64,000 bases of DNA from an uncultured Candidatus Saccharibacteria bacterium (GTDB taxonomy: Bacteria > Patescibacteriota > Minisyncoccia > Phycocordibacterales > UBA6899). Below are positions 18,074 to 29,601 of this stretch, in pieces. Below the pieces are notes generated by a model. The model worked only from the letters and a program-made list of their open reading frames with translations. It did not search any database and had not been told where the DNA came from. The stretch covers positions 142,501 to 206,500 of the forward strand of contig CAYXYK010000001.1 of assembly GCA_964469335.1 (NCBI GenBank), given 5' to 3'. The position numbers and the translations under genes were made by a program. The number at the start of each line of letters is the position of its first letter. Positions within the stretch are counted from its first letter, which is position 1.

Positions 18074-18160
18074 GGAGGAGTGGCTGAGTGGTTTAAGGCA
18101 ACAGTCTTGAAAACTGTCGTCCATTTACGTGGACCGTGAGTTCGAATCTCACCTCCTCCG
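18074..18160 (+). tRNA. tRNA-Ser (UGA)
   Basis: GGAGGAG acceptor, anticodon loop CTTGAAA, long variable arm, GTGAG-TTCGAAT-CTCAC, discriminator G. Confidence 0.85.
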
Positions 18161-18195
18161 CCCAATCAAAAAACACCTGAAGGGTGTTTTTTGAT

Positions 18196-18248
18196 TGGGC
18201 GGAGGAAGCAAGCAGGCTGCCCTGCTTGTGAGGTGAAATTCGAAGACC
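18196..18248 (-). repeat. Inverted copy of the tRNA-Ser 3' end interrupted by a CAAG..GCAG..CTTG hairpin
   Basis: Minus strand reads TTCGAATTTCACCTCA-[caagcagg GCAG cctgcttg]-CTTCCTCCGCCCA. A 24-bp palindromic terminator (18153-18200) lies between it and the tRNA; a further direct partial T-loop copy GGTTTCGAATCTCACC is at 18299-18314. Confidence 0.6.
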
Positions 18249-19080: not shown

Positions 19081-19152
19081 GTCCTCGTCGTTCAATGGAT
19101 AGGACAAGAGTTTGCGGAACTCTAAATATAGGTTCGATTCCTATCGAGGGCA
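19081..19152 (+). tRNA. tRNA-Arg (GCG), unusual anticodon
   Basis: Manual fold: GTCCTCG/CGAGGGC acceptor, GTTC-AATGGATA-GGAC, anticodon stem-loop AGAGT-TTGCGGA-ACTCT, ATAGG-TTCGATT-CCTAT. Confidence 0.6.
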
Positions 19153-20675
19153 CAAAAATTAACTTCTTCTGAAATCTGCCCCGCGCGCAAGCGCGCGGTA
19201 GTCAGGAGGGGGTGGGTGAAATCCGAATTCGTGTTGCATGCAATGGCGAATGCGGTGGGTGGGCTAAATGAGACGGTGACGGATTTATCACGCATGATCG
19301 GGTTCGTTCCGATTTTTTTGATATAGTCCCGAATTTCCAAAAAATTATCGGACGAACTCAATTCCGTGGCTTTTTTCATATCCAAAATCCACTCCCGCAA
19401 AGGTTCGACCCAATTCTTTCTCTCTGCTCGAGCGGATGCCATTTTGTGCGCGAGCGACACCTTTTGCCCAAGGAGGTCATTTTTCTTTTTTAAATATTGC
19501 TCCTTGGGGATATCTCCGTCGAGGTAGAGTCCCACGAGGGTGTCGAGTTTCTGCTGTGTCTCGCGCTCACTTCCCCGCATCCGCTCGAGCTGACTTCCCG
19601 ACGACACGGTTTCCTCTCGCTCCCACTCGTCCACCTGTTTCGACATGCTCACAATCCAGTCGTCGGGAAGTACGATGTTTTGGAGCTGTGCTTTTACCTG
19701 AGCAACGAGCACCGCCTCCCGCATGTACCCCTGCGCACATTTTCCGTTCTTTTTCGTGCACCGATAATACCGATACAGTCCACCATGTCCTTTTGCCCAC
19801 TGTGCGGTAATCATGCCCCCACACTCCCCACAACGAAAAAGTCCGGTGAATGGAAAATCGTGATGCTTTTTTGATTTCACGGGGCGTGCTCGTTTGCTCA
19901 ATCTTTTCTGCACAGCTTCAAATAAGTCGGGAGAAAGAATTGGCGGAAATGTGCCATCAAACCATTCTCCGTGATGCTTCACCAACCCCAAATATGCCCG
20001 ATTGGAAAGCATGCCGGAGATGGCACATTTCGAGAGTGGCGTTCCATTTCGCGTCACAATGCCATGATCCGCCAAAAATTGCGCCATTGATTCGTAGCAA
20101 TGTTTCCCTGTGGCGAATTCCTTAAACACGCGAACAAGCAGGCTAGATTTCACCACGTCAGGCTCAATATTTCGCGTTTTAGGGTTATTTATATATCCAA
20201 ACGGTGCTTTGGTCAGCCATTCGCCACGGCGCAGTTTCTGGCGGATTCCACGCTCCACATTCTGCTTTAAGTTGTCGGAATAGTACTTGGACTGTCCGAA
20301 CGCCACTTGCAACATAAAAAGACCTTGCGGGGTTGGTTCAAACCAAAATGTCGGGAAGCGCAAAGAAATGATCTTGGTCGTGTCTACGGCATAGATGATG
20401 CGCCCGCCATCAATACTATTGCGTGCGAGGCGATCAGGATGCCACGCGAGGATACCCACACCGTCCATCGACTCAATGCGGGACATCATCTCATTGAATT
20501 TCTCACGACCCGGTTTCTTTGCGCTTTTCGACTCTTGAAATTCTTCGAGAATTTCAAGATTTTCTTTATGTGCGAACTCACGAAGCTCAAACAACTGCGC
20601 CTCGATAGACATCACTTGCTTATCATCATCCTCCGTACTCTTTCGCGCATAAAGAAAATATTTTGATTTGCTCAT
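19122..20675 (-). CDS. Large serine recombinase
   Basis: N-terminal YARKSTEDD...SIEAQ resolvase domain with catalytic Ser; CGECGG...YYRC zinc ribbon. The 3' end runs through the left inverted repeat and 31 nt of tRNA-Arg antisense. Start trimmed to MSKSKYF. Confidence 0.8.
   Translation of the reverse strand: MSKSKYFLYARKSTEDDDKQVMSIEAQLFELREFAHKENLEILEEFQESKSAKKPGREKFNEMMSRIESMDGVGILAWHPDRLARNSIDGGRIIYAVDTTKIISLRFPTFWFEPTPQGLFMLQVAFGQSKYYSDNLKQNVERGIRQKLRRGEWLTKAPFGYINNPKTRNIEPDVVKSSLLVRVFKEFATGKHCYESMAQFLADHGIVTRNGTPLSKCAISGMLSNRAYLGLVKHHGEWFDGTFPPILSPDLFEAVQKRLSKRARPVKSKKHHDFPFTGLFRCGECGGMITAQWAKGHGGLYRYYRCTKKNGKCAQGYMREAVLVAQVKAQLQNIVLPDDWIVSMSKQVDEWEREETVSSGSQLERMRGSERETQQKLDTLVGLYLDGDIPKEQYLKKKNDLLGQKVSLAHKMASARAERKNWVEPLREWILDMKKATELSSSDNFLEIRDYIKKIGTNPIMRDKSVTVSFSPPTAFAIACNTNSDFTHPLLTTARLRAGQISEEVNFCALDRNRTYI
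19151..19258. repeat. Left copy of a perfect 108-bp inverted repeat flanking the serine recombinase gene
   Basis: Exact reverse complement of 20742-20849; begins at the last 2 nt of tRNA-Arg. Confidence 0.9.
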
Positions 20676-20741
20676 AGATTTGCTTTTGATATAAAAAAAT
20701 GAAAAGTCCGTTGTCGGCTCATTTCCTGCCTTTCTGCCCGT

Positions 20742-20849
20742 CCACCGCATTCGCCATTGCATGCAACACGAATTCGGATTTCACCCACCCCCTCCTGACT
20801 ACCGCGCGCTTGCGCGCGGGGCAGATTTCAGAAGAAGTTAATTTTTGTG
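20742..20849. repeat. Right copy of the perfect 108-bp inverted repeat
   Basis: Reverse complement of 19151-19258. Read on the plus strand it re-encodes the recombinase C-terminal peptide (ORF 20699-20893). Confidence 0.9.
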
Positions 20850-20981
20850 CTCTTTTGCCGTGGCTCGCTCGAACCTTTTTCGAAAATAAATAAGTAATCA
20901 ACAACCACTCAGGCACCCCCGCTCGCTTCGCTCGTCGCCCCACGGGCACTCCCTCTCTCGATTTTTTTCCGCCCCGCCATA
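20850..20981. repeat. 132-bp repeat (copy 1), inverted relative to 29259-29391
   Basis: About 90 percent identical to the reverse complement of 29259-29391. Confidence 0.85.
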
Positions 20982-21082
20982 CCTAAAATCACGAAAGCAT
21001 TTCGCTTACCTTAATGCATTTCTCATGCCAATATATAATATCCCACTTTGGTCTATACCACAATGGGTTATATGCTTAAGGT

Positions 21083-21301
21083 ATGGATAGCATATACACA
21101 AAAGAACATGCGAGGCTTGTTCAGAAGCTTAAGCAGGCACGTGCTGATGCAAAGCTCACCCAGGTGCAAATTGCGAAGATGCTAAAAAAGCCACAATCAT
21201 ATATTTCAAAAATCGAACGTGGCGAGCGAAGGATAGAGGCGCTTGAGCTTGGTAAGTTTGCAAAACTGTACAAAAAAAGCATCGCGTATTTTTTTGAGTA
21301 G
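21083..21301 (+). CDS. XRE-family (Cro/CI-type) HTH transcriptional regulator
   Basis: LTQVQIAKMLKKPQSYISKIERGER HTH. Confidence 0.7.
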   Translation: MDSIYTKEHARLVQKLKQARADAKLTQVQIAKMLKKPQSYISKIERGERRIEALELGKFAKLYKKSIAYFFE

Positions 21302-21302
21302 C

Positions 21303-22136
21303 TCATTCTTTCGACATCAACTCGCGCAGGCGACGATTCACATCGATCGGCTTACCGCTCTCCTTCATAAACGCATACATGCCGAGGATCATCTTTTGAA
21401 TATCGGAGTGGCGAATCTCGATCACCATCTTGTCATTGAGTGCGAGAAGGTACATCGCGTCCTTGAATGCGAATATCTGTGCCGAGTGTTCAAAGTATGA
21501 TTGAGGAAGATATACCGCGGATGATGATCTTCCCTCATAATCTTTTGCCCATGCGTCGCCCATAGCTCTGTAATGATTTTCAATCCAATTCTGTGAAGCG
21601 ACAAGCTCGCTAATGATTCCATTCTTCTTTACGATCCGGTTCCATTCATTGATCTCTTCTGGAGTGAATATCGAGAGCCATCCTTTCTCAAGAATATCCC
21701 CGAATGGGGTGTAACCAAGAAATCGCTCATCTTTTCGTGAGGTAATCATGTCAAAAATCACTTTTTTTACGGCAGCGGCTCCACGATGCACAGTCACCAC
21801 TCCATCTGTCACTCCGCCAACCTCCTCTTTACCATCGGAAAATGCCAGCAGTTTTTTCTTGAGTGCATAGAGTGTATCCGCAAGCTCTTTCTCGCTTGCG
21901 ATATGCCAACTCTTTTTTCCTCCAACAATACGCGACGCAGCAAGCCCACGCTTCTTGAGTTTGAGCAAAATCACATATACCGATGGACGGCTCACGCGTG
22001 TTTTTCGGGCGATATCAAGTACTGAGGCTCTCCCAGATTGGAGAGCAAGAAGGACTTTCTCTTCTTTTAACGACAGATCGAGCATCCTTAACTCTTCGCG
22101 TAGAGGCTCTCTTGTCTTGATTTTTGGGTTTTTCAC
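21303..22136 (-). CDS. TrmB-family transcriptional regulator (paralog of 7373-8128)
   Basis: wHTH LALQSGRASVLDIARKTRVSRPSVYVILLKLKKRGL plus TrmB-like C-terminal domain. Confidence 0.55.
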   Translation of the reverse strand: MKNPKIKTREPLREELRMLDLSLKEEKVLLALQSGRASVLDIARKTRVSRPSVYVILLKLKKRGLAASRIVGGKKSWHIASEKELADTLYALKKKLLAFSDGKEEVGGVTDGVVTVHRGAAAVKKVIFDMITSRKDERFLGYTPFGDILEKGWLSIFTPEEINEWNRIVKKNGIISELVASQNWIENHYRAMGDAWAKDYEGRSSSAVYLPQSYFEHSAQIFAFKDAMYLLALNDKMVIEIRHSDIQKMILGMYAFMKESGKPIDVNRRLRELMSKE

Positions 22137-22332
22137 CCCCTTAGTATAGCAAATTCTACAGTTTTGTAAAGTTTTTTTGACATTTTATGTGCTATTTTCA
22201 TCCTTTATTTACAACATACTTTGTGCATGAATGTTTGATACAACATATATTTTTACTGTCAATACATTTCCTGTTACGATGATACCAGAACGATAAGCAC
22301 AGTGCTTACCGAGAACCTTGAAGGAGACGATC

Positions 22333-22623
22333 ATGTACGAAGACAATCAGGTGCGCGAAATGATGGCGTCGATCCCCCAAGGGTTTGGGGTAGTCGCGGT
22401 ACAGTTCACCAACTGGGACGCGTACAGCGACTTCGAGCTGTACAAGGTTCCAGAAGGAACTGTACTGCCCGACGGCAAAGAGCTTTCTAGCGGCGAGTGT
22501 GCTCGGTATGAATATACCCACCACGCCCGCTACGAAAAGCTCTACTCGTTCTTTCAGGATTACAGGAACATGCTTGGGTGGACCAAGCTAGATTCCTTCA
22601 TCCTAGAGACGAGGTTTGCCTAA
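22333..22623 (+). CDS. Hypothetical protein
   Basis: RBS aaggag then ATG at 22333; followed by a ctggga-acgtga-tcccag hairpin. Confidence 0.4.
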   Translation: MYEDNQVREMMASIPQGFGVVAVQFTNWDAYSDFELYKVPEGTVLPDGKELSSGECARYEYTHHARYEKLYSFFQDYRNMLGWTKLDSFILETRFA

Positions 22624-22687
22624 GGAGCCCTGGGAACGTGATCCCAGTCAATAACTCACCGTCACGCAGGAGGACGTCACTCTCCTG

Positions 22688-22745
22688 CACTTTATCAAGT
22701 TTCTGAAGTGACTCAGAAACTTGTAGAGTAAGTTCTTTGAGAAAT
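22688..22745 (+). repeat. Composite hairpin motif copy a (CTTTATCAAGTT-hairpin-AACTTGTAGAG..AGTTCTTTGA)
   Basis: ctttatcaaGTTTCTGAagtgacTCAGAAACttgtagagtaagttctttgagaaa. Confidence 0.8.
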
Positions 22746-22750
22746 GTTCC

Positions 22751-22859
22751 ATCTAAGTTTTAGGATCGTGCGAGTGATGCATCGCTCGCAGCATCCTAAA
22801 ACTTAGGCTCCCCACGTGAACGGCCCGTATTGGGTACGACGTAGGGGTGAGGAGCAATC
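22751..22859 (+). promoter_or_regulatory. Structured 110-nt leader (54-nt palindrome, then ggggtgaggag RBS) upstream of ORF 22860
   Basis: About 95 percent identical to 24158-24265; palindrome ctaagttttaggatcgtgcgagtgatgcatcgctcgcagcatcctaaaacttag. Confidence 0.6.
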
Positions 22860-23294
22860 ATGAGCAACGCAACTGAAATCATGGGCCTGCTGCATTCCTA
22901 CTACAATAAGGAGACAGCGAAGGTCAGCAGTGGTGAGGTGGATCCAAGGAATCACTTCATCAGCTGCAGAATGGACAAGGTCATTCTTCTGGGTGTGTCA
23001 TCACCAATCCCTAAGGGATGGAAGAAGGCCGGGCCTCGGCAGCTGATTTGGCTGGCTAGCCATTCTCAGTACATGCCGGTGGAGTGGAGAGGGTATGAGC
23101 TTTTGTTCGACGAGGTGGTCTTCCATGACACCGAAGCGGATAAAGACTGCATGCCTAACTCACCTCCGTCACTCTGGGTGCCGACATTGTCGTATAACAA
23201 TGGAAGCATACCCGGCTGGAACAACAAAAGGATCTTCCTTAGTTGTCGGCCGGAGACACATCCCAACATGCTTAGGTTGTGTGTGCCAGAGTAG
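22860..23294 (+). CDS. Hypothetical cassette protein A (144 aa)
   Basis: Preceded by the structured leader; no recognisable domain. Confidence 0.5.
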   Translation: MSNATEIMGLLHSYYNKETAKVSSGEVDPRNHFISCRMDKVILLGVSSPIPKGWKKAGPRQLIWLASHSQYMPVEWRGYELLFDEVVFHDTEADKDCMPNSPPSLWVPTLSYNNGSIPGWNNKRIFLSCRPETHPNMLRLCVPE

Positions 23295-23496
23295 GTGTCC
23301 AACCGCAGCGCTAGCTGACTGCGGTATAAAAATAAACTAGTAGTGGCCAACTCGAGGGCCTGCACAACGTGTGATGCTCTGTAGAAAGAGCGTGGCACGA
23401 GGTGAGTCGCTTCCATACGGCATGGAAAGAAGCGGCAAGCGCTATGACTGGTAGATATGCGCGAACTACCCACCCGCCCGAGCGTGATCGGTGCAT

Positions 23497-23585
23497 GGGG
23501 AATCGGTTGATCGTCATGTGACGATTGATTCCCCTCTTTATCGGGCTCATCACACAGATATGGTGGGTCAGTAGAGACAAGTTCT
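23497..23585 (+). repeat. Composite hairpin motif copy b (degenerate), with hairpin A GGGGAATCGGTTGATCGTCATGTGACGATTGATTCCCC
   Basis: tctttatc-gggctcatcacac...gtgggtc-agtagag-acaagttctttgaa. Confidence 0.6.
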
Positions 23586-23638
23586 TTGAATCAATCGCGA
23601 AATTCTTCGCACTGCACCTCGGGTACTGGGGTAAGGAG

Positions 23639-23797
23639 ATGAGCATGTGGAAATGGGCTGTCATCGCCCTCTGCGGCTTCCAAGCCGTGTGGGCAGCTCA
23701 CTATGTTGTCGAGAATAATGGTTGGTCGATCTTCGCGGTCGCAGCCATCATCATCGACATCCTTGTACTGCTTGCAGTCACAAAGGAGAACAGGTGA
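23639..23797 (+). CDS. Small single/double-TM peptide (52 aa)
   Basis: RBS aaggag; MSMWKWAVIALCGFQAVWAAHYVVENNGWSIFAVAAIIIDILVLLAVTKENR. Confidence 0.35.
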   Translation: MSMWKWAVIALCGFQAVWAAHYVVENNGWSIFAVAAIIIDILVLLAVTKENR

Positions 23798-23825
23798 GTA
23801 CACCCGGCCGGGAGGCCCGAGTATT

Positions 23826-23935
23826 GCGCGCTTGGGAACAGAAGTCGCATTGGGGGAAATTCATTTCCCCACTTTATCAAGTTCATCACATGGGTTGTGA
23901 ACTTGTAGAGTGCAGTTCTTTGAAAACGGCCTGTC
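23826..23935 (+). repeat. Composite hairpin motif copy c, with upstream box CGCTTGGGAACAGAAGTCGCATT and hairpin A GGGGGAAATTCATTTCCCC
   Basis: ctttatcaagttcatcacatgggttgtgaacttgtagagtgcagttctttgaaaa. Confidence 0.8.
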
Positions 23936-24070
23936 TGATGCCTTGTTGCACCGACTCCCAGGAGCGCTGCAGCAAAAATCAAATGGCTGATCACCATTTG
24001 ATGCTGACTATCGGTACTTGAACAAAACGCCGAGACGCCCGCAGATAAGGAAAGTATATCTGTGGGAGCG

Positions 24071-24150
24071 GAGGAAGCCTGCAACTTCCTCCTCTTTATC
24101 AAGTGCATCACATTGGGTGGTGCGCTTGTAGAGAAAGTTCTTTGAGAATA
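24071..24150 (+). repeat. Composite hairpin motif copy d, with hairpin A GGAGGAAGCCTGCAACTTCCTCC
   Basis: tctttatcaagtgcatcacattgggtggtgcgcttgtagagaaagttctttgagaata. Confidence 0.8.
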
Positions 24151-24157
24151 TCTCCAT

Positions 24158-24265
24158 TCTAAGTTTTAGGATCGTGCGAGTGATGCATCGCTCGCAGCAT
24201 CCTAAAACTTAGGCTCCCCACGTGCACGGCCCGCATTGGGTACGGCGTAGGGGTGAGGAGATAAC
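24158..24265 (+). promoter_or_regulatory. Structured 110-nt leader (second copy) upstream of ORF 24266
   Basis: Near-identical to 22751-22859, including the RBS. Confidence 0.6.
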
Positions 24266-24697
24266 ATGTCCAAGATCTATGTTTCACACTTTCATGGTTT
24301 CAACGACCTGGAGGCCACCAAGATGGCTGTGTCAGGCATTGAAGCAGAAAGTGAAAAGGAACTCCGACTGAAGCTTAGGGGTCGCCTCCTCGCCAACCTT
24401 GACAGCATTGTCGAAGAGTTGATGGAGAAGACCTTCAGCCTTCAGTATGTGACCCCGTTGGGTCAAAGGGTTTATCCCGAGGTGTACGAGATGATGCAAA
24501 GCCTGCCCAAGGGGTATACGCTCATCGAGTACACCTACCAGGTGAGGCCTGGGTGCATCGACTATCGAACGATGTACTACCAGGCCCCTGAAGGGATCGA
24601 GGTCGATGGCAAGACCTTGAGGGAAAGCGAGTTCTATCGGGCCGGAGGTTACTACGGAAGTAATCCTCCATGGGCCGTGAACTGCACCCGACTCTGA
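24266..24697 (+). CDS. Hypothetical cassette protein B (143 aa; unrelated in sequence to protein A)
   Basis: Same leader as 22860; the 3' flank 24698-24960 is homologous to 23295-23555. Confidence 0.5.
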   Translation: MSKIYVSHFHGFNDLEATKMAVSGIEAESEKELRLKLRGRLLANLDSIVEELMEKTFSLQYVTPLGQRVYPEVYEMMQSLPKGYTLIEYTYQVRPGCIDYRTMYYQAPEGIEVDGKTLRESEFYRAGGYYGSNPPWAVNCTRL

Positions 24698-24898
24698 CGG
24701 AGTAACCGCAGAGCTTGTTCGAACGACTGCGGTATAGAAATGAACAAGTAGTGGTCAACTCGAGGACCTGCACATTGCATGTCGCCCGTAGAACGGCAGA
24801 TGCACAAGGTGAGACCGTGGATACAGCTAAAACCATGGACAAACGCTTTACTGGTAGATACGCGTGAACTACTCGTCTGCCAGTACGTGAACTGTGCG

Positions 24899-24998
24899 CG
24901 GGGAATCGGTTGATCGTCATGTGACGATTGATTCCCCTCTTTATCAAGTTTCTGAAGAAATTCGGAAGCTTGTAGAGATGAGTTCATTGAATCAGTGT
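24899..24998 (+). repeat. Composite hairpin motif copy e, with hairpin A GGGAATCGGTTGATCGTCATGTGACGATTGATTCCCC
   Basis: tctttatcaagtttctgaagaaattcggaagcttgtagagatgagttcattgaatcag. Confidence 0.8.
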
Positions 24999-25099
24999 GA
25001 TGAAGTGAAGCGATGCCAGGAAGGCCTGTGGGGCATGTCTTTCAAACGAAAGCATGAACACATTCCTGCCATCACTCCACTTCATCACCGGAGATAACT

Positions 25100-25345
25100 A
25101 TGCAAAAGCTGATCATTGTTTGTGCGCTGTTTGTGCTGTCGGGCTGCGATATCGTCTACAGCGATCGCGCCGGCTTTGCGCACGGCTACCGCGACGGGCA
25201 AGGAGTCGCCTTGGGTCATGGAACATGCCAGACATTTCCAAACCCACGGAAGTCGATCATCCCGATCGAGCGACCGGCAAGTTACGCAAATGCATATCGG
25301 GAGGGATATGCGGTGGGCTGCCGAGCCATGCTCCGACATGAGTAA
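25100..25345 (+). CDS. Small lipoprotein (81 aa)
   Basis: Signal peptide and lipobox LSGC; preceded by a long imperfect hairpin leader 25003-25095. Confidence 0.5.
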   Translation: MQKLIIVCALFVLSGCDIVYSDRAGFAHGYRDGQGVALGHGTCQTFPNPRKSIIPIERPASYANAYREGYAVGCRAMLRHE

Positions 25346-25357
25346 GACTCCGAGCCC

Positions 25358-25478
25358 GCGACGCTTGGGAACAGAAGTCGCATTCGCAGAACATTTTGTT
25401 CTGCACTTTATCAAGTTCACGAAATGGCCTGCCTGTCGGCAGACAGGTTCGTGAACTTGTAGAGCAAACTCTTTCAAT
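25358..25478 (+). repeat. Composite hairpin motif copy f, with upstream box CGCTTGGGAACAGAAGTCGCATT and hairpin A GCAGAACATTTTGTTCTGC
   Basis: ctttatcaagttcacgaaatggcctgcctgtcggcagacaggttcgtgaacttgtagagcaaactctttcaatcaaggag. Confidence 0.8.
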
Positions 25479-25491
25479 CAAGGAGAAGACC

Positions 25492-25635
25492 ATGTGGTAT
25501 GTATTCTGTTTTGTGATCGGTTTCGCGTTTGGCGCACTGCTTGTGATCGAGATCAAGCTTGAGCTTGCGGGTTACCAGCCGCCGGAGGGCTACCCACGCA
25601 TTCCGCTTGACCGTGGTCCATACGTGCGACTGTGA
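25492..25635 (+). CDS. Small TM peptide (47 aa)
   Basis: RBS aaggag; MWYVFCFVIGFAFGALLVIEIK... Confidence 0.35.
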   Translation: MWYVFCFVIGFAFGALLVIEIKLELAGYQPPEGYPRIPLDRGPYVRL

Positions 25636-25669
25636 GTGTTCGGTTGAAAATTAACGAAAGGAGATCGTC

Positions 25670-25837
25670 ATGAAGAAAGTCGGGAAGACCCTCGCTCCGC
25701 GCCTGCCGGAGATCGCGAGGAAGAAGCTCACGCAGGGCGGTACGCACAATAACAAGAAGGCGTACAAGAGGAAGGAAAAGCATCACAGCCGAGAGACCTC
25801 TCGGCTGTATTTTTTAGTGATACAATTCATCAGATGA
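25670..25837 (+). CDS. Small highly basic protein (55 aa, K/R-rich)
   Basis: RBS aaggagatcgtc-ATG; MKKVGKTLAPRLPEIARKKLTQGGTHNNKKAYKRKEKHH...; an internal terminator-like hairpin near the 3' end makes the true stop uncertain. Confidence 0.3.
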   Translation: MKKVGKTLAPRLPEIARKKLTQGGTHNNKKAYKRKEKHHSRETSRLYFLVIQFIR

Positions 25838-26472
25838 GCACAGCGATAGAAATTGCAAGTGATATACATACGCTGACATCGAATTGGTCAAAAGGTCAGC
25901 ACAAGCTCGTTATGGCCCTCGATGGGTATACCGGTGTCGGGAAGACAACGATACTGAACGAACTATTGAAACTCAATCCTGACATCCTTCCTGTGCATGT
26001 GGACGACTTCATTTTGCCGCCGGCAGAATTCAAGGAAATTCTCGCGGAGAACTCCGACCGTTCGATTGCATTTGAACTGCATCGCAATGACTATGCGAGG
26101 ATTGAAGAATTGGTGAATAGGTTTCGCACACAAGATGACCCCGTCGAGGTGCTCGTTGCAAATCCAGTGACCGGAGCGATCGATGTTCCCAAAACCTTCG
26201 ACTGTTCGAAGAAGATTATGGTCGTCGAGGGGGTGTTCATGTTTCACCCGAAGTTACTGAACCACCTTTGGGACAAGCGCATATATCTTGATGGAGATAC
26301 TACGAAAATTGACGAGCGACGAATTGCTCGCGAAAAAGCACGTTGGGGTGATAAATATTTTCCCGAAACCCATCCAGATTCATTCTTTGGACAGGTGGTC
26401 ATTGCACTCAAGCGATATCGCGAAGAATATAAACCAGAAGAATTAGCGGATGCAGTATTATTCGTGAATTAA
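25834..26472 (+). CDS. P-loop nucleoside kinase, uridine kinase / PRK family-like
   Basis: Walker A GYTGVGKTT; RIYLDGDTTKIDERRIARE resembles the udk motif IFVDTDADVRLARRI. Confidence 0.55.
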   Translation: MSTAIEIASDIHTLTSNWSKGQHKLVMALDGYTGVGKTTILNELLKLNPDILPVHVDDFILPPAEFKEILAENSDRSIAFELHRNDYARIEELVNRFRTQDDPVEVLVANPVTGAIDVPKTFDCSKKIMVVEGVFMFHPKLLNHLWDKRIYLDGDTTKIDERRIAREKARWGDKYFPETHPDSFFGQVVIALKRYREEYKPEELADAVLFVN

Positions 26473-26477
26473 TTTTT

Positions 26478-27293
26478 ATGCTTAAGGATTTTTACCAAAA
26501 AAACCAAAGAGAAATAGCAAACGCAGTGCGTGATTTTGTCGATAAAGATTTGTACGGAGAACTCCCAGAGTTGAGAGGCGCCTGTTCAATTCTTGTAACA
26601 GGATCAGTGGCAACTAATAACTACGACCATTTTAGTGACATTGATCTCAATATACTTTTTGCCACTGACGAACAGGTGGCAAAATTCTCCCAGAGCATAT
26701 CAAAATACAAACAACACCTCAGAGAAATTGGGGAGCCGGTGCAAATTCATAAGCCAAACACCTACCAGTCCATCAAAGCAACGCTCGCAACATGGCAAAA
26801 CGATTCTCTGTTGAGAGAATATGCTCAAGCATTGATCGTCAACGATCCCCAAGATCAATTTTTGGCGATACAACAAAAATTTGCATACTACCCGCAAGAA
26901 ATATATAAGGAAAAAATTCAGTGGCTTTTTGCAGAAATGAATTTTCAGCTCAAGGATCGACTTGAGATTGGGGTCGCTCGGCAAGATCGATATTTCTGTG
27001 AGATCGTAAAGATGAATATCGTAAGATTGTTTTTGAATACATTACTCCTTCTAGGGCACAAATATCCGTCATTTGATAAACATCTATATCGCGATGCGAA
27101 GATGATTTTGCAGGAAGAAGTAAAACTTGTAGACAAACTTATTGGCGAAAAAGATTTGCCACAAATTCAACTCGAGACTCAACAACTTAAAGATCGTATT
27201 GAAACACTTCTCTTGGCAGCCCAGTTGATACCAAAAGAAACCGACCAGTACTGGATCGACCTGCGGCCCGCTTATCAAGTCAAATTGGACTAA
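26478..27293 (+). CDS. Pol-beta-superfamily nucleotidyltransferase with C-terminal helical domain (KNTase/Lnu-like architecture)
   Basis: GSVATNNYDHFSDIDLNILF is the hG[GS]x9-13Dh[DE]h motif. Confidence 0.6.
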   Translation: MLKDFYQKNQREIANAVRDFVDKDLYGELPELRGACSILVTGSVATNNYDHFSDIDLNILFATDEQVAKFSQSISKYKQHLREIGEPVQIHKPNTYQSIKATLATWQNDSLLREYAQALIVNDPQDQFLAIQQKFAYYPQEIYKEKIQWLFAEMNFQLKDRLEIGVARQDRYFCEIVKMNIVRLFLNTLLLLGHKYPSFDKHLYRDAKMILQEEVKLVDKLIGEKDLPQIQLETQQLKDRIETLLLAAQLIPKETDQYWIDLRPAYQVKLD

Positions 27294-27297
27294 GACA

Positions 27298-27855
27298 ATG
27301 AAAGGTGACGTACAAATGCGAAAACAAAGAGACAAAGAACACTTCGTTTTACGAGATGCAGACATATTTCCTAATGCAAAAACTGTCGAAGGAATGAAGT
27401 TTGAAGAGCGACTTGCAGTGAAGGTAATTCTTTTCGACAAAGACAAGAAGTTGGCACTCGTGGGAACCAAGCACCGTCTCTTGCCTGGTGGTGGAGTGGA
27501 TAAAAATGAAGGTAATGAGGATGCTGCTAAGCGTGAAATAAGAGAAGAGGTTGGCTGTGAAATAAAGGTCATCCGTGAAATAGCGAAAACTGAAGAGTTT
27601 CGAGAAAAAATCGGAAGACACCAATACACGAGATTTCTTCTCGCTGAAGTTGTGGGTGAGAAAGGTACACCTCAAACAACACAAAGTGACGAACAAGGCA
27701 TAGTTATCGAGTGGTGCACGCTCGCAGAGGCAATCACATTATTGGAAAAACAGAAAGAAGAAATCCCCTTCGAAGAATATAACGCCTGTTTCAATGTCCG
27801 CACTCATCTTAAGGTTTTGAAAGAGTTTCAAGCCAGCAATAATAGTGCGATCTGA
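27298..27855 (+). CDS. NUDIX hydrolase
   Basis: Nudix box GGGVDKNEGNEDAAKREIREEVG. Confidence 0.75.
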   Translation: MKGDVQMRKQRDKEHFVLRDADIFPNAKTVEGMKFEERLAVKVILFDKDKKLALVGTKHRLLPGGGVDKNEGNEDAAKREIREEVGCEIKVIREIAKTEEFREKIGRHQYTRFLLAEVVGEKGTPQTTQSDEQGIVIEWCTLAEAITLLEKQKEEIPFEEYNACFNVRTHLKVLKEFQASNNSAI

Positions 27856-27958
27856 AAATCAGCCCCCCAGTGCCCTTCTGGGCTCACGGATGGCTCTAGG
27901 TGTGCCACTTTCCTGCATAGCTGTGTCATATACCACTTCATTTTGCTAAAATAGGTCA

Positions 27959-28579
27959 ATGGATGAGCAAAATAGCCCCTCAACAGAACCCACTACAACT
28001 ACCCCTGATCCAGTGGTAAATACCCCAGCAGTTGAACCACAGCAAGCTGAAGTCGTTCAAGCCCCAGCGGAGATAGCTCCTGTACCAGAAACAACTCAAA
28101 TTGTCGCACCATCTGAGCCGATCGCCGAAACCCCAACGGCTCAAATGGCAGGAAGTGAGCCGTTGCCCGAAGTTCAATCGGCGTCTGCACCGAGCGCTAC
28201 CGCGCCAGCGGAAGCGCCTCAGCCACAAACTCCAACTGTCACTCAAGCTTCAACGGCAACGCCAGAACCAATGCCAACTCCTGTGCAACCTGCCCCCGCA
28301 TCCATGCCCGCGCAAGCGCCAGTCACAACTCCTCCTCGTAACCTCGCTCGTCTCTTCCTCGAAAAAGCGAAAGCAGTCATCCAATTTCGCAAGCAGAAGA
28401 AACTCACAAAGATTATGACGCTGTTTGAAAAGAAAAAACAAATCACGAATGACGAAGTGGAAAAACTCCTGCATGTCTCCGATGCAACCGCGACACGCTA
28501 TCTTTCTGAACTAGAGAAGCAAAACAAGATCACACAGACAGGAAAAATAGGACACGCAGTCACATACACCAAGCGCTAA
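27959..28579 (+). CDS. DNA-binding protein: Pro/Ala/Thr/Gln-rich disordered N-terminal region plus C-terminal winged HTH
   Basis: C-terminus ITNDEVEKLLHVSDATATRYLSELEKQNKITQTGKIGHAVTYTKR. Confidence 0.5.
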   Translation: MDEQNSPSTEPTTTTPDPVVNTPAVEPQQAEVVQAPAEIAPVPETTQIVAPSEPIAETPTAQMAGSEPLPEVQSASAPSATAPAEAPQPQTPTVTQASTATPEPMPTPVQPAPASMPAQAPVTTPPRNLARLFLEKAKAVIQFRKQKKLTKIMTLFEKKKQITNDEVEKLLHVSDATATRYLSELEKQNKITQTGKIGHAVTYTKR

Positions 28580-28654
28580 CTCACACTCAGTCCTTCGATC
28601 ACTGCATGTCAGCTCTCGCACAGCATATTCGCCGTACCAATCACGTGGATTCCT

Positions 28655-29000
28655 CCGGCCTCGGGCATTTCCGCTAGGGCGCCCATGATAACCGGATGAG
28701 CGCCGCCGCGAACGGAGGCACCCATGTTCGTAGCGAAAGCGACAAGAGGAACTCGGTAATGAAAACTCGGGTGGGGGGTTGTGCGGGTGGCGGTCCTCCG
28801 CCTCCACGCGGGGGGGAGGGTCCGCCCATCCCCCCAAACAGAGGCGGGCGTGACTCGCCGATTCAGAGTCTTCAAAGTCGAACGGCTCAATTGGTGGGAA
28901 ATGAGCCGTTCAGAGTAAACCAACGGCTCACTCGGCGAGGCAACCGCCCGTTCACTGACATCTAGGCGCGAGTAGCCCTAGCGGAAATGCCCGAAGCCGG
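28655..29000. other. GC-rich 346-bp non-coding element bounded by 26-bp terminal inverted repeats (MITE-like element or structured ncRNA; class unresolved)
   Basis: TIRs CCGGCCTCGGGCATTTCCGCTAGGGC / GCCCTAGCGGAAATGCCCGAAGCCGG; GC content far above the flanks; only nonsense ORFs; internal AACGGCTCA repeats. Confidence 0.35.
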
Positions 29001-29258
29001 ATGGCTGAGGGTGCACTGAAACTCCAACTACCTCTCACTCCAATCGCCGCACCGAAGTCGGAGGGCGATCACGGGAGTCTGTACGGAGAGAGAAGTGAAG
29101 AACGGATACTGCGCGCAAGGAGGAAGCACCCCCGGCTGGCGCATCAGCAGGAAACGAGCAAGCCCGAACAACCACAATGCTCTCGATCTACACATGCTCG
29201 TTTCCTGATGAATGCGACAGTTGCCCCACGGTCATCTTCTTCCTTACTGCAATTTTCT

Positions 29259-29391
29259 TATGGCGGGGCGGAAAAAAATCGAGAGCCGGAGATGCCGTGG
29301 GGAGACGAGCGAAGCGAGCGGGGGTGCCTGAGTGGTTGTTGATTACTTATTTATTTTCGAAAAAGGTTCGAGCGAGCCACGGCAAAAGAGC
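29259..29391. repeat. 132-bp repeat (copy 2), inverted relative to 20850-20981
   Basis: Followed by the palindrome caccaaaagaaaaaacggc-atta-gccgttttttcttttggtg (29392-29436). Confidence 0.85.
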
Positions 29392-29601
29392 ACCAAAAGA
29401 AAAAACGGCTAATGCCGTTTTTTCTTTTGGTGCCCTCGAGAAGTTACCTGCGCGCATTACGGATAAGAATCGAAAGGGTTTTCATTGTCGCGTCTTTGAG
29501 AGTGAAGACAACCTGCGGCGGTTGCCGAGATTCCTGCCACAAAATAGCATCCCTTTTTCTTCCCATAGTCCCCTTCACCCGCTATACTGGATGTAATTCA
29601 T

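What the first reader, a model, noticed from the sequence alone, without database searches (positions are those of the whole stretch)
19081..20990. Large serine recombinase gene bracketed by perfect 108-bp inverted repeats that begin exactly at the 3' end of tRNA-Arg; the recombinase C-terminus is encoded inside the repeat
19151-19258 is the exact reverse complement of 20742-20849. The left repeat starts at the discriminator base of tRNA-Arg(GCG). The recombinase ORF on the minus strand reads through the whole left repeat and 31 nt of the tRNA antisense, ending ...NFCALDRNRTYI. The right repeat, read on the plus strand, re-encodes the same roughly 40 residues but continues into a different tail (..CALLPWLARTFFENK). 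If the recombinase inverts the segment between the repeats, it would swap its own C-terminus or promoter context. Alternatively, the repeats may be the terminal inverted repeats of a compact transposon-like element whose transposase is a large serine recombinase and whose target is the tRNA 3' end. I do not know a described element with 108-bp TIRs and a serine-recombinase transposase.
Basis: seen in the sequence. Interest (0 to 1): 0.7.

Follow-up and report, generated by a model that had tools for sequence, protein, structure and literature searches.

The report
Serine-integrase island with duplicated attachment site
The inverted repeat is real, but it does not mark the ends of a small transposon: it is half of the attachment site of a 10-kb island that a large serine integrase inserted at the 3' end of tRNA-Arg, and a second, inverted copy of that whole site sits in front of the integrase gene, a layout shared by hundreds of Patescibacteria genomes and, as far as I could find, not described.

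Summary
Window 19150-19258 is the exact reverse complement of 20742-20850 (109 nt). It starts in the last 3 nt of tRNA-Arg(GCG). An intact 517-aa large serine recombinase (LSR) ORF reads through it.

The element does not end at the right repeat. A second inverted pair (20847-20981 and 29393-29259) and an empty site in a related strain show a 10.2-kb island at 19150-29393. attL is tRNA|P', attR is P|native trailer, and GCAC is the shared core.

The same layout occurs in eight other islands that could be delimited. The LSR-flanking repeat next to a tRNA or tmRNA 3' end occurs in about 60 of 82 fetched Patescibacteria loci. Its orientation is fixed, so I see no flip-flop between genomes.

The tRNA T-arm motif GTTCG recurs in P, 6 bp further from the core. 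That matches the known attB/attP spacing rule of serine integrases.

Why attP is duplicated is inferred, not shown. My best guess is that it keeps the promoter and leader on the LSR gene after integration.

Verdict: a new variant of a known kind. Interest 0.62.

The parts
19081..19152 (+). tRNA-Arg(GCG). Its T arm and 3' acceptor strand form the B half-site of attL. The gene stays intact, but the genomically encoded CCA is replaced by CAA.
   Evidence: ARAGORN and Rfam. The empty site in L090 reads ...cgagggcaCCAtatt.
19150..19153 (+). Core of attL, GCAC (tRNA positions 71-73 plus the next base). It is shared with the internal attP and with attR. The crossover must lie within the first 3 nt.
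   Evidence: Three-site comparison in the window and in 8 other islands. The minimum shared block is TCA, in L030.
19150..19258 (+). P' arm, attL copy. It encodes, in antisense, roughly the last 35 residues of the LSR up to the tRNA boundary. An imperfect 24-nt continuation lies at 19267-19290.
   Evidence: The LSR frame is open through this arm in 41 of 42 loci.
19122..20675 (-). Large serine recombinase gene, 517 aa. The stop codon lies 31 nt inside the antisense tRNA.
   Evidence: Pfam Resolvase, Recombinase and Zn_ribbon_recom. phrog_95 integrase, E 1e-75. Homologues are 63-83% identical over the full length, and R11, K12, S13 and T14 are invariant.
20742..20850 (-). P' arm, internal copy. 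It is the 5' leader of the LSR gene and the P' half of the internal inverted attP.
   Evidence: Exact reverse complement of 19150-19258.
20851..20981 (-). P arm, internal copy. It carries the GGTTCGAGC motif and GC-rich hairpins. In most relatives it also carries a sigma-70-like promoter pointing into P' and the LSR gene. The -10 box is poor in this window.
   Evidence: Conserved flank. Inverted copy at 29259-29389: an exact 90-nt run including the GCAC core (20847-20936 against 29393-29304, so 86 nt of P proper), 95.7% over 141 nt. Promoter scans (for relatives, for the window).
21083..21301 (+). HTH_3 (XRE-type) regulator, divergent from the LSR gene. It is a recurrent first cargo gene.
   Evidence: Pfam HTH_3, E 2.6e-13. 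The same family sits in the same position in at least 9 loci.
21303..29258 (.). Cargo: a TrmB-like winged-helix protein, duplicated small ORFs, a P-loop kinase-like protein, a nucleotidyltransferase (DUF4037), a NUDIX hydrolase and a winged-helix protein. No phage structural or replication genes were found.
29259..29393 (+). attR: the P arm (29259-29389) plus the core GCAC (29390-29393).
29390..29433 (+). B' half-site. This is the displaced native 3' end and terminator hairpin of tRNA-Arg, GCACCAAAAGAAAAAACGGC-taat-GCCGTTTTTTCTTTTGGTGC.
   Evidence: Sequence. The empty site in L090 has the same design.

Best explanation
The repeat belongs to a roughly 10.2-kb integrative island (window 19150-29393) that a large serine integrase inserted at the 3' end of tRNA-Arg(GCG).

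Shown by sequence comparison:
- attL is tRNA|GCAC|P'.
- attR is P|GCAC|native trailer with its terminator.
- The island also holds a complete inverted copy of the attP that excision would create (P|GCAC|P', 20742-20981). It lies directly upstream of the LSR gene.
The P half forms a second inverted pair with attR.
- The crossover lies within tRNA positions 71-73. It is probably the dinucleotide at 72-73.

Inferred: the integrase reads the universal T-arm sequence GGTTCGAnTCC as the B half-site. P carries the same motif 6 bp further out, as expected for attP against attB half-sites of serine integrases.

Inferred with less confidence:
- The LSR promoter lies in P and its leader is P'. The attP copy downstream of the gene is therefore the one spent in integration. 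The upstream copy keeps promoter, leader and a possible LSR operator attached to the gene in the integrated state.
- The arms stay identical through gene conversion or recent mobility.
- The arm hairpins replace the displaced tRNA terminator.
For: Island boundaries:
- P-flank motif repeated at 29362.
- Inverted pair 20842-20981 against 29398-29259, 95.7%, with 90 nt exact including the core.
- Empty site in L090 and L091, with homology ending at window 19153 and resuming at 29550.

Generality:
- At least 566 related loci in species-representative genomes.
- Of 70 loci with a measurable LSR-flanking repeat of 92-159 nt, 31 are 100% identical and 16 are 98-<100%.
- 58 loci have a convergent tRNA or tmRNA whose 3' end overlaps the downstream arm by 3-5 nt.
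- Eight further islands show the same attL, internal attP and attR triplet, with 158-250-nt P repeats at 97-100%.

Half-site logic: GTTCG lies 18 nt from the boundary in the tRNA and 24 nt in P. The shift is 6 bp in 44 loci and 5 bp in 5. The LI integrase rule is a 5-bp shift (PMC3783163).

Promoter: the only sigma-70-like match in L019, L041 and L073 lies in P and ends 4 nt before the arm.

Integrase identity.
Against: - The purpose of the internal attP is not demonstrated.
- The window's own P copy has a poor -10 box, and no promoter was called there.
- Keeping a promoter or operator needs about 50 bp. It does not explain 109-250-nt arms held at 100% identity.
- Gene conversion frequent enough to keep the arms identical would be expected to flip the segments now and then. 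No flipped locus with identical arms was seen.
- No excised circle or attP junction read was observed.
- No directionality factor was identified.
Confidence: 0.7

Rival explanations
1. Invertible integrase cassette. The LSR recombines attL (tRNA|P') with the inverted internal attP (P|P') and flips the 1.5-kb LSR segment. This would switch the gene between its own promoter and tRNA read-through, and would swap its C-terminal tail.
For: The two sites are in inverted orientation and share the core. About 12 of 120 homologous proteins end in ..FARTYFE.., which means they read into rc(P) rather than into a tRNA. L087 has the order LSR, arm, rc(P), then HTH on the same strand. L085 has tRNA-Ile upstream of the LSR gene in the sense orientation. 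Long identical inverted repeats are typical of flip-flop systems.
Against: None of about 65 loci with readable flanks has a tRNA next to the upstream arm. The HTH gene is always next to the internal P. The exceptions have other explanations. L084 has two different P copies (72% identical), as expected in a tandem array. L083 is a scaffold with an NN gap. L085 has heterologous arms with different cores, GGA and TCA, which cannot recombine with each other. Serine integrases are reported not to recombine pairings other than attP x attB (PMC3783163).
Confidence: 0.15
2. Compact transposon of about 1.7 kb, bounded by the 109-bp repeats as terminal inverted repeats, with the LSR as its transposase and the tRNA 3' end as its target.
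For: Many contigs of 1.7-2.0 kb carry only this gene. The repeat abuts the tRNA exactly.
Against: The flank beyond the right repeat is conserved across loci and is part of the element. attR lies 8.4 kb further on, and the empty site matches that boundary. The cores of the two arms are inverted and not palindromic, so a serine recombinase could not excise the cassette as a circle. The short contigs are explained by assemblies breaking at the repeats. Contigs typically end 48-138 nt into P.
Confidence: 0.03
3. The repeat serves mainly at the RNA level. The LSR mRNA would carry a 5' leader perfectly complementary to its own 3' coding end. The tRNA read-through transcript would carry the same leader sequence. 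Together these would give duplex-based control of integrase level and protect the tRNA gene from antisense transcription. This can coexist with the best explanation.
For: A promoter in P would start transcripts at the arm boundary. A conserved GC-rich palindrome and a variable hairpin with compensatory changes lie in the arms. The LSR frame is kept open through the arm in 41 of 42 loci, against 12-29 of 42 for the other frames.
Against: The window leader does not fold better than shuffles (z = -1.26). The palindrome core is invariant, so it says little about RNA pairing. Selection on RNA alone does not produce 100% identity of the two arms.
Confidence: 0.1
4. Assembly artefact: a chimeric inverted duplication.
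For: The arm length is close to common k-mer sizes.
Against: The same architecture appears in dozens of independent assemblies from different assemblers and in a complete chromosome, CP060229.1.
Confidence: 0.01

Closest known systems
Phage and island large serine integrases (LI/A118, Bxb1, phiC31, SPbeta SprA)
   Same: Three-domain LSR with a conserved R-K-S-T motif at the expected catalytic position. There is only a very short identity block between attP and attB. A shared outer motif lies 5-6 bp closer to the crossover in attB than in attP.
   Different: The target is the 3' end of tRNA and tmRNA genes, which is the usual niche of tyrosine integrases. A second complete attP copy is kept, inverted, inside the integrated element. 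The arms are far longer (109-250 nt) than a 25-bp half-site. Sequence similarity to solved LSRs is weak (E 6.5e-10 to SPbeta integrase).
tRNA/tmRNA-targeted genomic islands with tyrosine integrases (Islander-type)
   Same: The integrase gene lies next to the tRNA, the tRNA is left intact, the cargo is accessory genes, and tandem arrays probably form at the same tRNA (PMC4383910 abstract).
   Different: The recombinase family differs. The shared block is 3-7 nt, not tens of nt of duplicated tRNA 3' end. Only the trailer of the tRNA is replaced.
Myxophage Mx8 intP/intX and lambda sib retroregulation (recalled from memory, not tested)
   Same: The integrase reading frame or transcript crosses attP, so its 3' end differs between the integrated and the excised state. 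Here the tails are ...CALDRNRTYI and ...CALLPWLARTFFENK.
   Different: Those systems use tyrosine integrases and a single attP.
Tn3/gamma-delta res site (recalled from memory)
   Same: A serine recombinase whose recombination site overlaps its own promoter and so acts as an operator. This is the proposed role of the internal attP.
   Different: That case is a small resolvase with one site and no duplication. The operator role here is untested.
Yeast 2-micron plasmid and plastid inverted repeats (recalled from memory)
   Same: The predicted excised circle would carry two long identical inverted repeats, each holding a recombination site, separating two unique segments.
   Different: Flp recombines its two identical sites, whereas serine integrases are reported not to recombine attP with attP. 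No isomers were seen here.
TnpX / Tn4451-type LSR transposons and the IS607 family
   Same: Serine recombinases that drive mobility.
   Different: The element here is site-specific for tDNA ends and is not bounded by the repeat. IS607 transposases have a different domain order. The domain order here is catalytic domain, then Recombinase, then zinc ribbon.

Membership tests
Large serine recombinase / serine integrase | N-terminal resolvase catalytic domain with the nucleophile serine in a conserved R-x-S-T context | tested here: met
   PF00239, E 1.5e-21. R11, K12, S13 and T14 are invariant in 22 homologues.
Large serine recombinase / serine integrase | Recombinase domain plus zinc-ribbon domain C-terminal to the catalytic domain | tested here: met
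   PF07508, E 2.2e-13. PF13408, E 5.9e-12.
Large serine recombinase / serine integrase | attL and attR are hybrids of attP and attB that share only a short core | tested here: met
   The core is GCAC in the window and 3-7 nt in 8 other islands. An empty attB was found.
Large serine recombinase / serine integrase | The outer (ZD) motif lies about 5 bp closer to the crossover in attB than in attP | tested here: met
   GTTCG lies at 18 nt (tRNA) against 24 nt (P). The shift is 6 bp in 44 loci and 5 bp in 5. The rule is from PMC3783163. That this motif is the one the zinc-ribbon domain binds is an inference.
Large serine recombinase / serine integrase | Catalyses attP x attB recombination; excision needs a directionality factor | not testable with these tools
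No directionality factor was recognised in the cargo.
Terminal-inverted-repeat transposon or insertion sequence | The inverted repeats are the ends of the mobile unit; empty sites lack exactly the segment between them | tested here: not met
   The empty site lacks 19154-29393, not 19150-20850. A conserved flank continues beyond the right repeat.
Hin/Gin-type DNA invertase switch | Small serine recombinase with a C-terminal helix-turn-helix; both orientations of the segment are found | tested here: not met
   The protein has the LSR domain architecture. A single orientation was seen in about 65 loci. Population-level inversion was not testable.
IS607 family | Small serine transposase with an N-terminal MerR-like helix-turn-helix and a C-terminal catalytic domain | tested here: not met
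   The catalytic domain is N-terminal, and no such HTH domain was found among the Pfam hits.
Temperate phage / prophage | Structural, packaging or replication genes; presence in viral collections | tested here: not met
   None in the cargo. IMG/VR holds only one relative, at 39% identity.

The most novel reading that the evidence does not exclude
The duplicated, inverted attP may be a working part of the mobility cycle and not just a retained promoter.

One version: the integrase acts on attL and the internal attP, a pairing that canonical serine integrases refuse. It flips its own gene between a self-driven state and a tRNA-driven state with different C-termini.

Another version: the excised circle uses its two attP copies as alternative integration sites. 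L085 hints at this, with two different cores (GGA and TCA) on one element. That would let lineages hop between tRNA genes.

In either version, this LSR clade would read the universal T-arm of tRNA genes and could be retargeted by changing 2-3 core bases.
Probability: 0.15. Interest if true: 0.8.

Novelty: new variant of a known kind. Interest (0 to 1): 0.62.

Why it matters
Serine integrases are prized genome-engineering tools, but each needs its own rare landing site. This clade appears to use the most conserved DNA motif in biology, the tRNA T-arm, as half of its target. Close relatives (72-83% identical) sit at Arg, Gly, Glu, Val, Ala and tmRNA genes, and only the 3-nt core differs. That suggests a specificity that is easy to shift.

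The islands are also among the few recognisable mobile elements of Patescibacteria. They carry restriction-modification and other accessory genes, so they bear on how these tiny-genome symbionts exchange DNA.

The internal inverted attP, with arms kept identical over 100-250 nt, is not explained by the current model of serine integrase action.

The repeats also explain why assemblies of these genomes break here so often.

Tried and rejected
- Exact search of JGI metagenome contigs for the reconstructed empty site TTCGATTCCTATCGAGGGCACCAAAAG found nothing. The empty site was found instead through the flanking CheY-like gene.
- Rfam found no known RNA family in the arms or the P region of the window or of six loci.
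- The window leader RNA does not fold better than shuffles. The alignment fold supports only the GC palindrome, whose core never varies.
- I looked for dyad symmetry between P and P' (an rc-GTTCG motif in the arm) and found none that was convincing.
- I considered each repeat-flanked module as an independent cassette that excises to a circle with a palindromic junction. I rejected this because the cores are not palindromic.
- I considered an origin by inversion between attB and attP in cis. I rejected this because attR is in direct orientation.
- I considered fold-back of single-stranded DNA creating a double-stranded attP. There is no support for it, and a serine recombinase would break the strand.
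- Six literature searches found no description of this architecture. The tycheposon preprint mentions LSRs in a minority of tRNA-targeted elements but no such repeats.
- L083 was discarded as evidence for inversion because it is a scaffold with an NN gap.
Full report
**1. Observation**

The inverted repeat is real. The repeat finder reports arms 19147-19264 and 20736-20853 (118 nt, 97%). Base-by-base comparison gives an exact 109-nt repeat, 19150-19258 against 20850-20742. A 103-nt core occurs exactly twice in the window and never in shuffles. After a short indel the repeat continues imperfectly for 24 nt (19267-19290 and 20702-20725).

tRNA-Arg(gcg) lies at 19081-19152/3. The repeat therefore starts at tRNA position 71, two acceptor-stem bases before the discriminator.

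The minus-strand ORF 19122-20762 encodes a large serine recombinase (LSR). Homologues start at MSKSK (20675), which gives 517 aa. Resolvase, Recombinase and Zn_ribbon_recom domains all score above their cut-offs.

**2. The architecture is a family trait**

The LSR has more than 6000 homologues. The best 120 are 63-83% identical over the full length and come from Patescibacteria (Paceibacteria, Lloydbacteria, Magasanikbacteria and others). Many sit on contigs of only 1.7-2.5 kb.

A scan of one genome per species found at least 566 related loci, of which 80 were fetched. The survey of those loci gave the following:
- Of 70 loci with a measurable repeat flanking the LSR gene, the arms are 92-159 nt long, with modes at 115-117 and 131 nt.
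- 31 of the 70 are 100% identical, 16 are 98-<100%, 18 are 90-98% and 5 are below 90%.
- In 58 loci the outer end of the downstream arm overlaps, by 3-5 nt, the 3' end of a convergent tRNA or tmRNA. The counts are Glu 21, Ser 12, Ala 5, Arg 3, Gly 3, Ile 3, Lys 3, tmRNA 3, Leu 2, and Val, Pro and 'Stop' 1 each.
- No locus has a tRNA next to the upstream arm.

The outermost 3 nt of each arm vary with the tRNA (GCA, TCA, CCA, CCG, GGA, CGA). They are its last two stem bases plus the discriminator.

**3. The element does not end at the right repeat**

The flank outside the upstream arm is conserved between unrelated loci..TTCGAAAAAGGTTCGCGCAAAGGnTAnnATTAnn|arm. I call this flank P and the arm P'.

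In the window, the motif AAAGGTTCGAGCGA recurs at 29362 on the opposite strand. The surrounding sequence forms a second inverted pair:
- 20842-20981 pairs with 29398-29259 at 95.7% over 141 nt.
- 90 nt of this are exact (20847-20936 against 29393-29304), and they include the same GCAC that starts the arm.

At 29390 the P copy is followed by GCAC-CAAAAGAAAAAACGGC-taat-GCCGTTTTTTCTTTTGGTGC. This is a perfect terminator hairpin beginning with the tRNA's own last bases plus CCA. It is what attR (P|core|B') should look like.

**4. Empty site**

The gene right of the hairpin is a CheY-like receiver protein. Contigs carrying a 98%-identical copy (L090, L091) show the following order:
- the same 149-aa gene as in the window's left flank;
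- tRNA-Arg(gcg) ending ...cgagggcaCCA;
- a terminator hairpin of the same design;
- the CheY gene. No recombinase is present.

Homology to the window runs up to 19153 and resumes at 29550. The inserted unit is therefore 19154-29393, about 10.2 kb. The native tRNA gene encoded CCA. After insertion it ends GCA|CAA.

**5. Three sites, one core**

In the window the three sites are:
- attL = ...cgagg GCAC aaaaatt (tRNA|P');
- the internal site = ...aaaaga GCAC aaaaatt (P|P', inverted);
- attR = ...aaaaga GCAC caaaag (P|B').

The internal site is exactly the attP that excision would form, over 195 contiguous bases (20742-20936).

The same triplet was reconstructed in eight further islands: L030, L048, L061, L067, L072, L073, L074 and L080. 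Their cargo is 1.1-2.9 kb and their P repeats are 158-250 nt at 97-100%. The block shared by attL and attR is 3-7 nt. The minimum is TCA in L030, so the crossover lies within tRNA positions 71-73.

In L084 a junction joins an arm to a different P copy. The first core base differs there (CCA against TCA), which points to the dinucleotide at 72-73 as the crossover.

Many contigs end 48-138 nt into P. This is expected if P is generally a long inverted repeat that breaks assemblies.

**6. Half-site logic**

GTTCG, the T-loop sequence of every tRNA and tmRNA gene, lies 18 nt from the arm boundary on the tRNA side. The same motif lies 24 nt from it in P. The shift is 6 bp in 44 loci and 5 bp in 5 loci. 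The remaining 11 loci are artefacts of a loose pattern.

For LI integrase, the motif bound by the zinc-ribbon domain is present in attB shifted 5 bp toward the centre relative to attP (PMC3783163). I infer that P mimics the tDNA T-arm. This would also explain how close relatives sit at different tRNAs with only the core changed.

**7. What the internal attP may do**

This section is inference.
- In L019, L041 and L073, the only sigma-70-like match within 400 nt is in P. It reads TTGAAA/TCGAAA-N17-TAnnAT and ends 4 nt before the arm, so transcripts would start at the core and run through P' into the LSR gene.
- With a single attP in that position, integration would tear the promoter away from the gene.
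- With two copies, the one overlapping the 3' end of the gene is spent in integration. The one upstream stays intact, and LSR could also bind it as an operator.
- The window's own -10 box is poor.

This idea does not explain why the arms are so long or why they are so often identical. Identity levels of the P and P' pairs tend to go together across ten islands: 100/100 three times, then 99.2/99.2, 98.3/98.5 and 98.1/97.6. This hints that both pairs are reset together. The sample is small.

The LSR frame stays open through the arm in 41 of 42 loci, against 12-29 of 42 for the other frames. Translation to the tRNA boundary therefore seems to be selected.

The arms contain a variable hairpin with compensatory changes and an invariant GC palindrome, CGCC-N3-GGCG. 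These may replace the displaced tRNA terminator.

**8. Inversion?**

The orientation of the LSR gene, and of the HTH gene next to P, is the same wherever both flanks can be read.

About 12 of 120 homologous proteins end in ..FARTYFE.., meaning they read into rc(P). The cases I could inspect have other explanations:
- L084 is a chain of modules with two different P copies (72% identical). It is most simply a tandem array.
- L083 is a gapped scaffold.
- L087 starts inside an arm.
- L085 has tRNA-Ile upstream of the LSR gene, but its two arms are heterologous and have different cores.

Low-frequency inversion cannot be excluded without reads.

**9. Nature of the element**

The cargo of the window island is small regulators, a P-loop kinase-like protein, a nucleotidyltransferase and a NUDIX hydrolase. 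Other islands carry restriction-modification genes. There are no phage genes, and the family is nearly absent from IMG/VR. The closest solved structure is SPbeta integrase, at E 6.5e-10.

**10. Verdict**

The transposon and switch readings are not supported. The locus is an LSR-driven island targeted to a tRNA 3' end, with a conserved internal inverted attP. Six full-text searches found no description of this layout. It is a new variant of a known kind. The structural part is well supported. The function of the duplication remains open.

Noticed in passing
window 18074-18206: tRNA-Ser(tga) is followed by a perfect 24-bp hairpin (18154-18177 and 18183-18206) whose rising arm is the tRNA's own 3' end. 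The native tRNA-Arg terminator has the same design, both in the window (29390-29433) and in the empty site L090 (about 1100-1150). tRNA genes of this organism seem to end in terminators that pair with the acceptor end.
   Followed up: partly
window 22720-22854 / 24125-24260 and 23317-23542 / 24725-24945: Direct repeats (94% and 78%) inside the island cargo. They indicate a tandem duplication of about 1.4 kb that holds paralogous small ORFs of 144 and 143 aa with no family match.
   Followed up: no
L084 1-8625: A chain of repeat-flanked modules: rc(P')|rc(Pa), restriction-modification cargo, Pa|P', LSR, rc(P')|rc(Pb), with Pb only 72% identical to Pa. The likely reading is several islands stacked at one tRNA. 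That would mean the integrase accepts a hybrid site (tRNA|P') as a target.
   Followed up: partly
L085 1186-3010: This is the only contig with a tRNA (Ile, + strand) directly upstream of the LSR gene in the sense orientation. Its upstream arm has core GGA. Its downstream arm is a different sequence with core TCA, followed by rc(P). It could be an element with two attP copies of different specificity, or a chimeric contig.
   Followed up: partly
L046 and L048 (CP060229.1, complete 995-kb Nomurabacteria chromosome): The chromosome carries two islands of this family at different tRNAs (Arg and Glu). One has arms decayed to 77% identity but still has an intact LSR ORF. The integrase therefore stays under selection after the repeat has degenerated.
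   Followed up: no
arms of 24 loci, alignment A2 columns 43-59; window 19181-19198: An invariant GC palindrome core (CGCC-N3-GGCG; CCGCGCGC-AA-GCGCGCGG in the window) lies about 30-60 nt from the crossover in every arm examined. It could be a binding site for a dimeric protein or a bidirectional terminator.
   Followed up: partly
window 19122-19258 and homologues: The invariant Cys508 and the near-invariant 'EV' of the LSR tail come from conserved DNA (rc of RCA after the tRNA end, and rc of GAAACTTC). They do not reflect protein-level constraint. The last 40 or so residues otherwise vary freely.
   Followed up: partly
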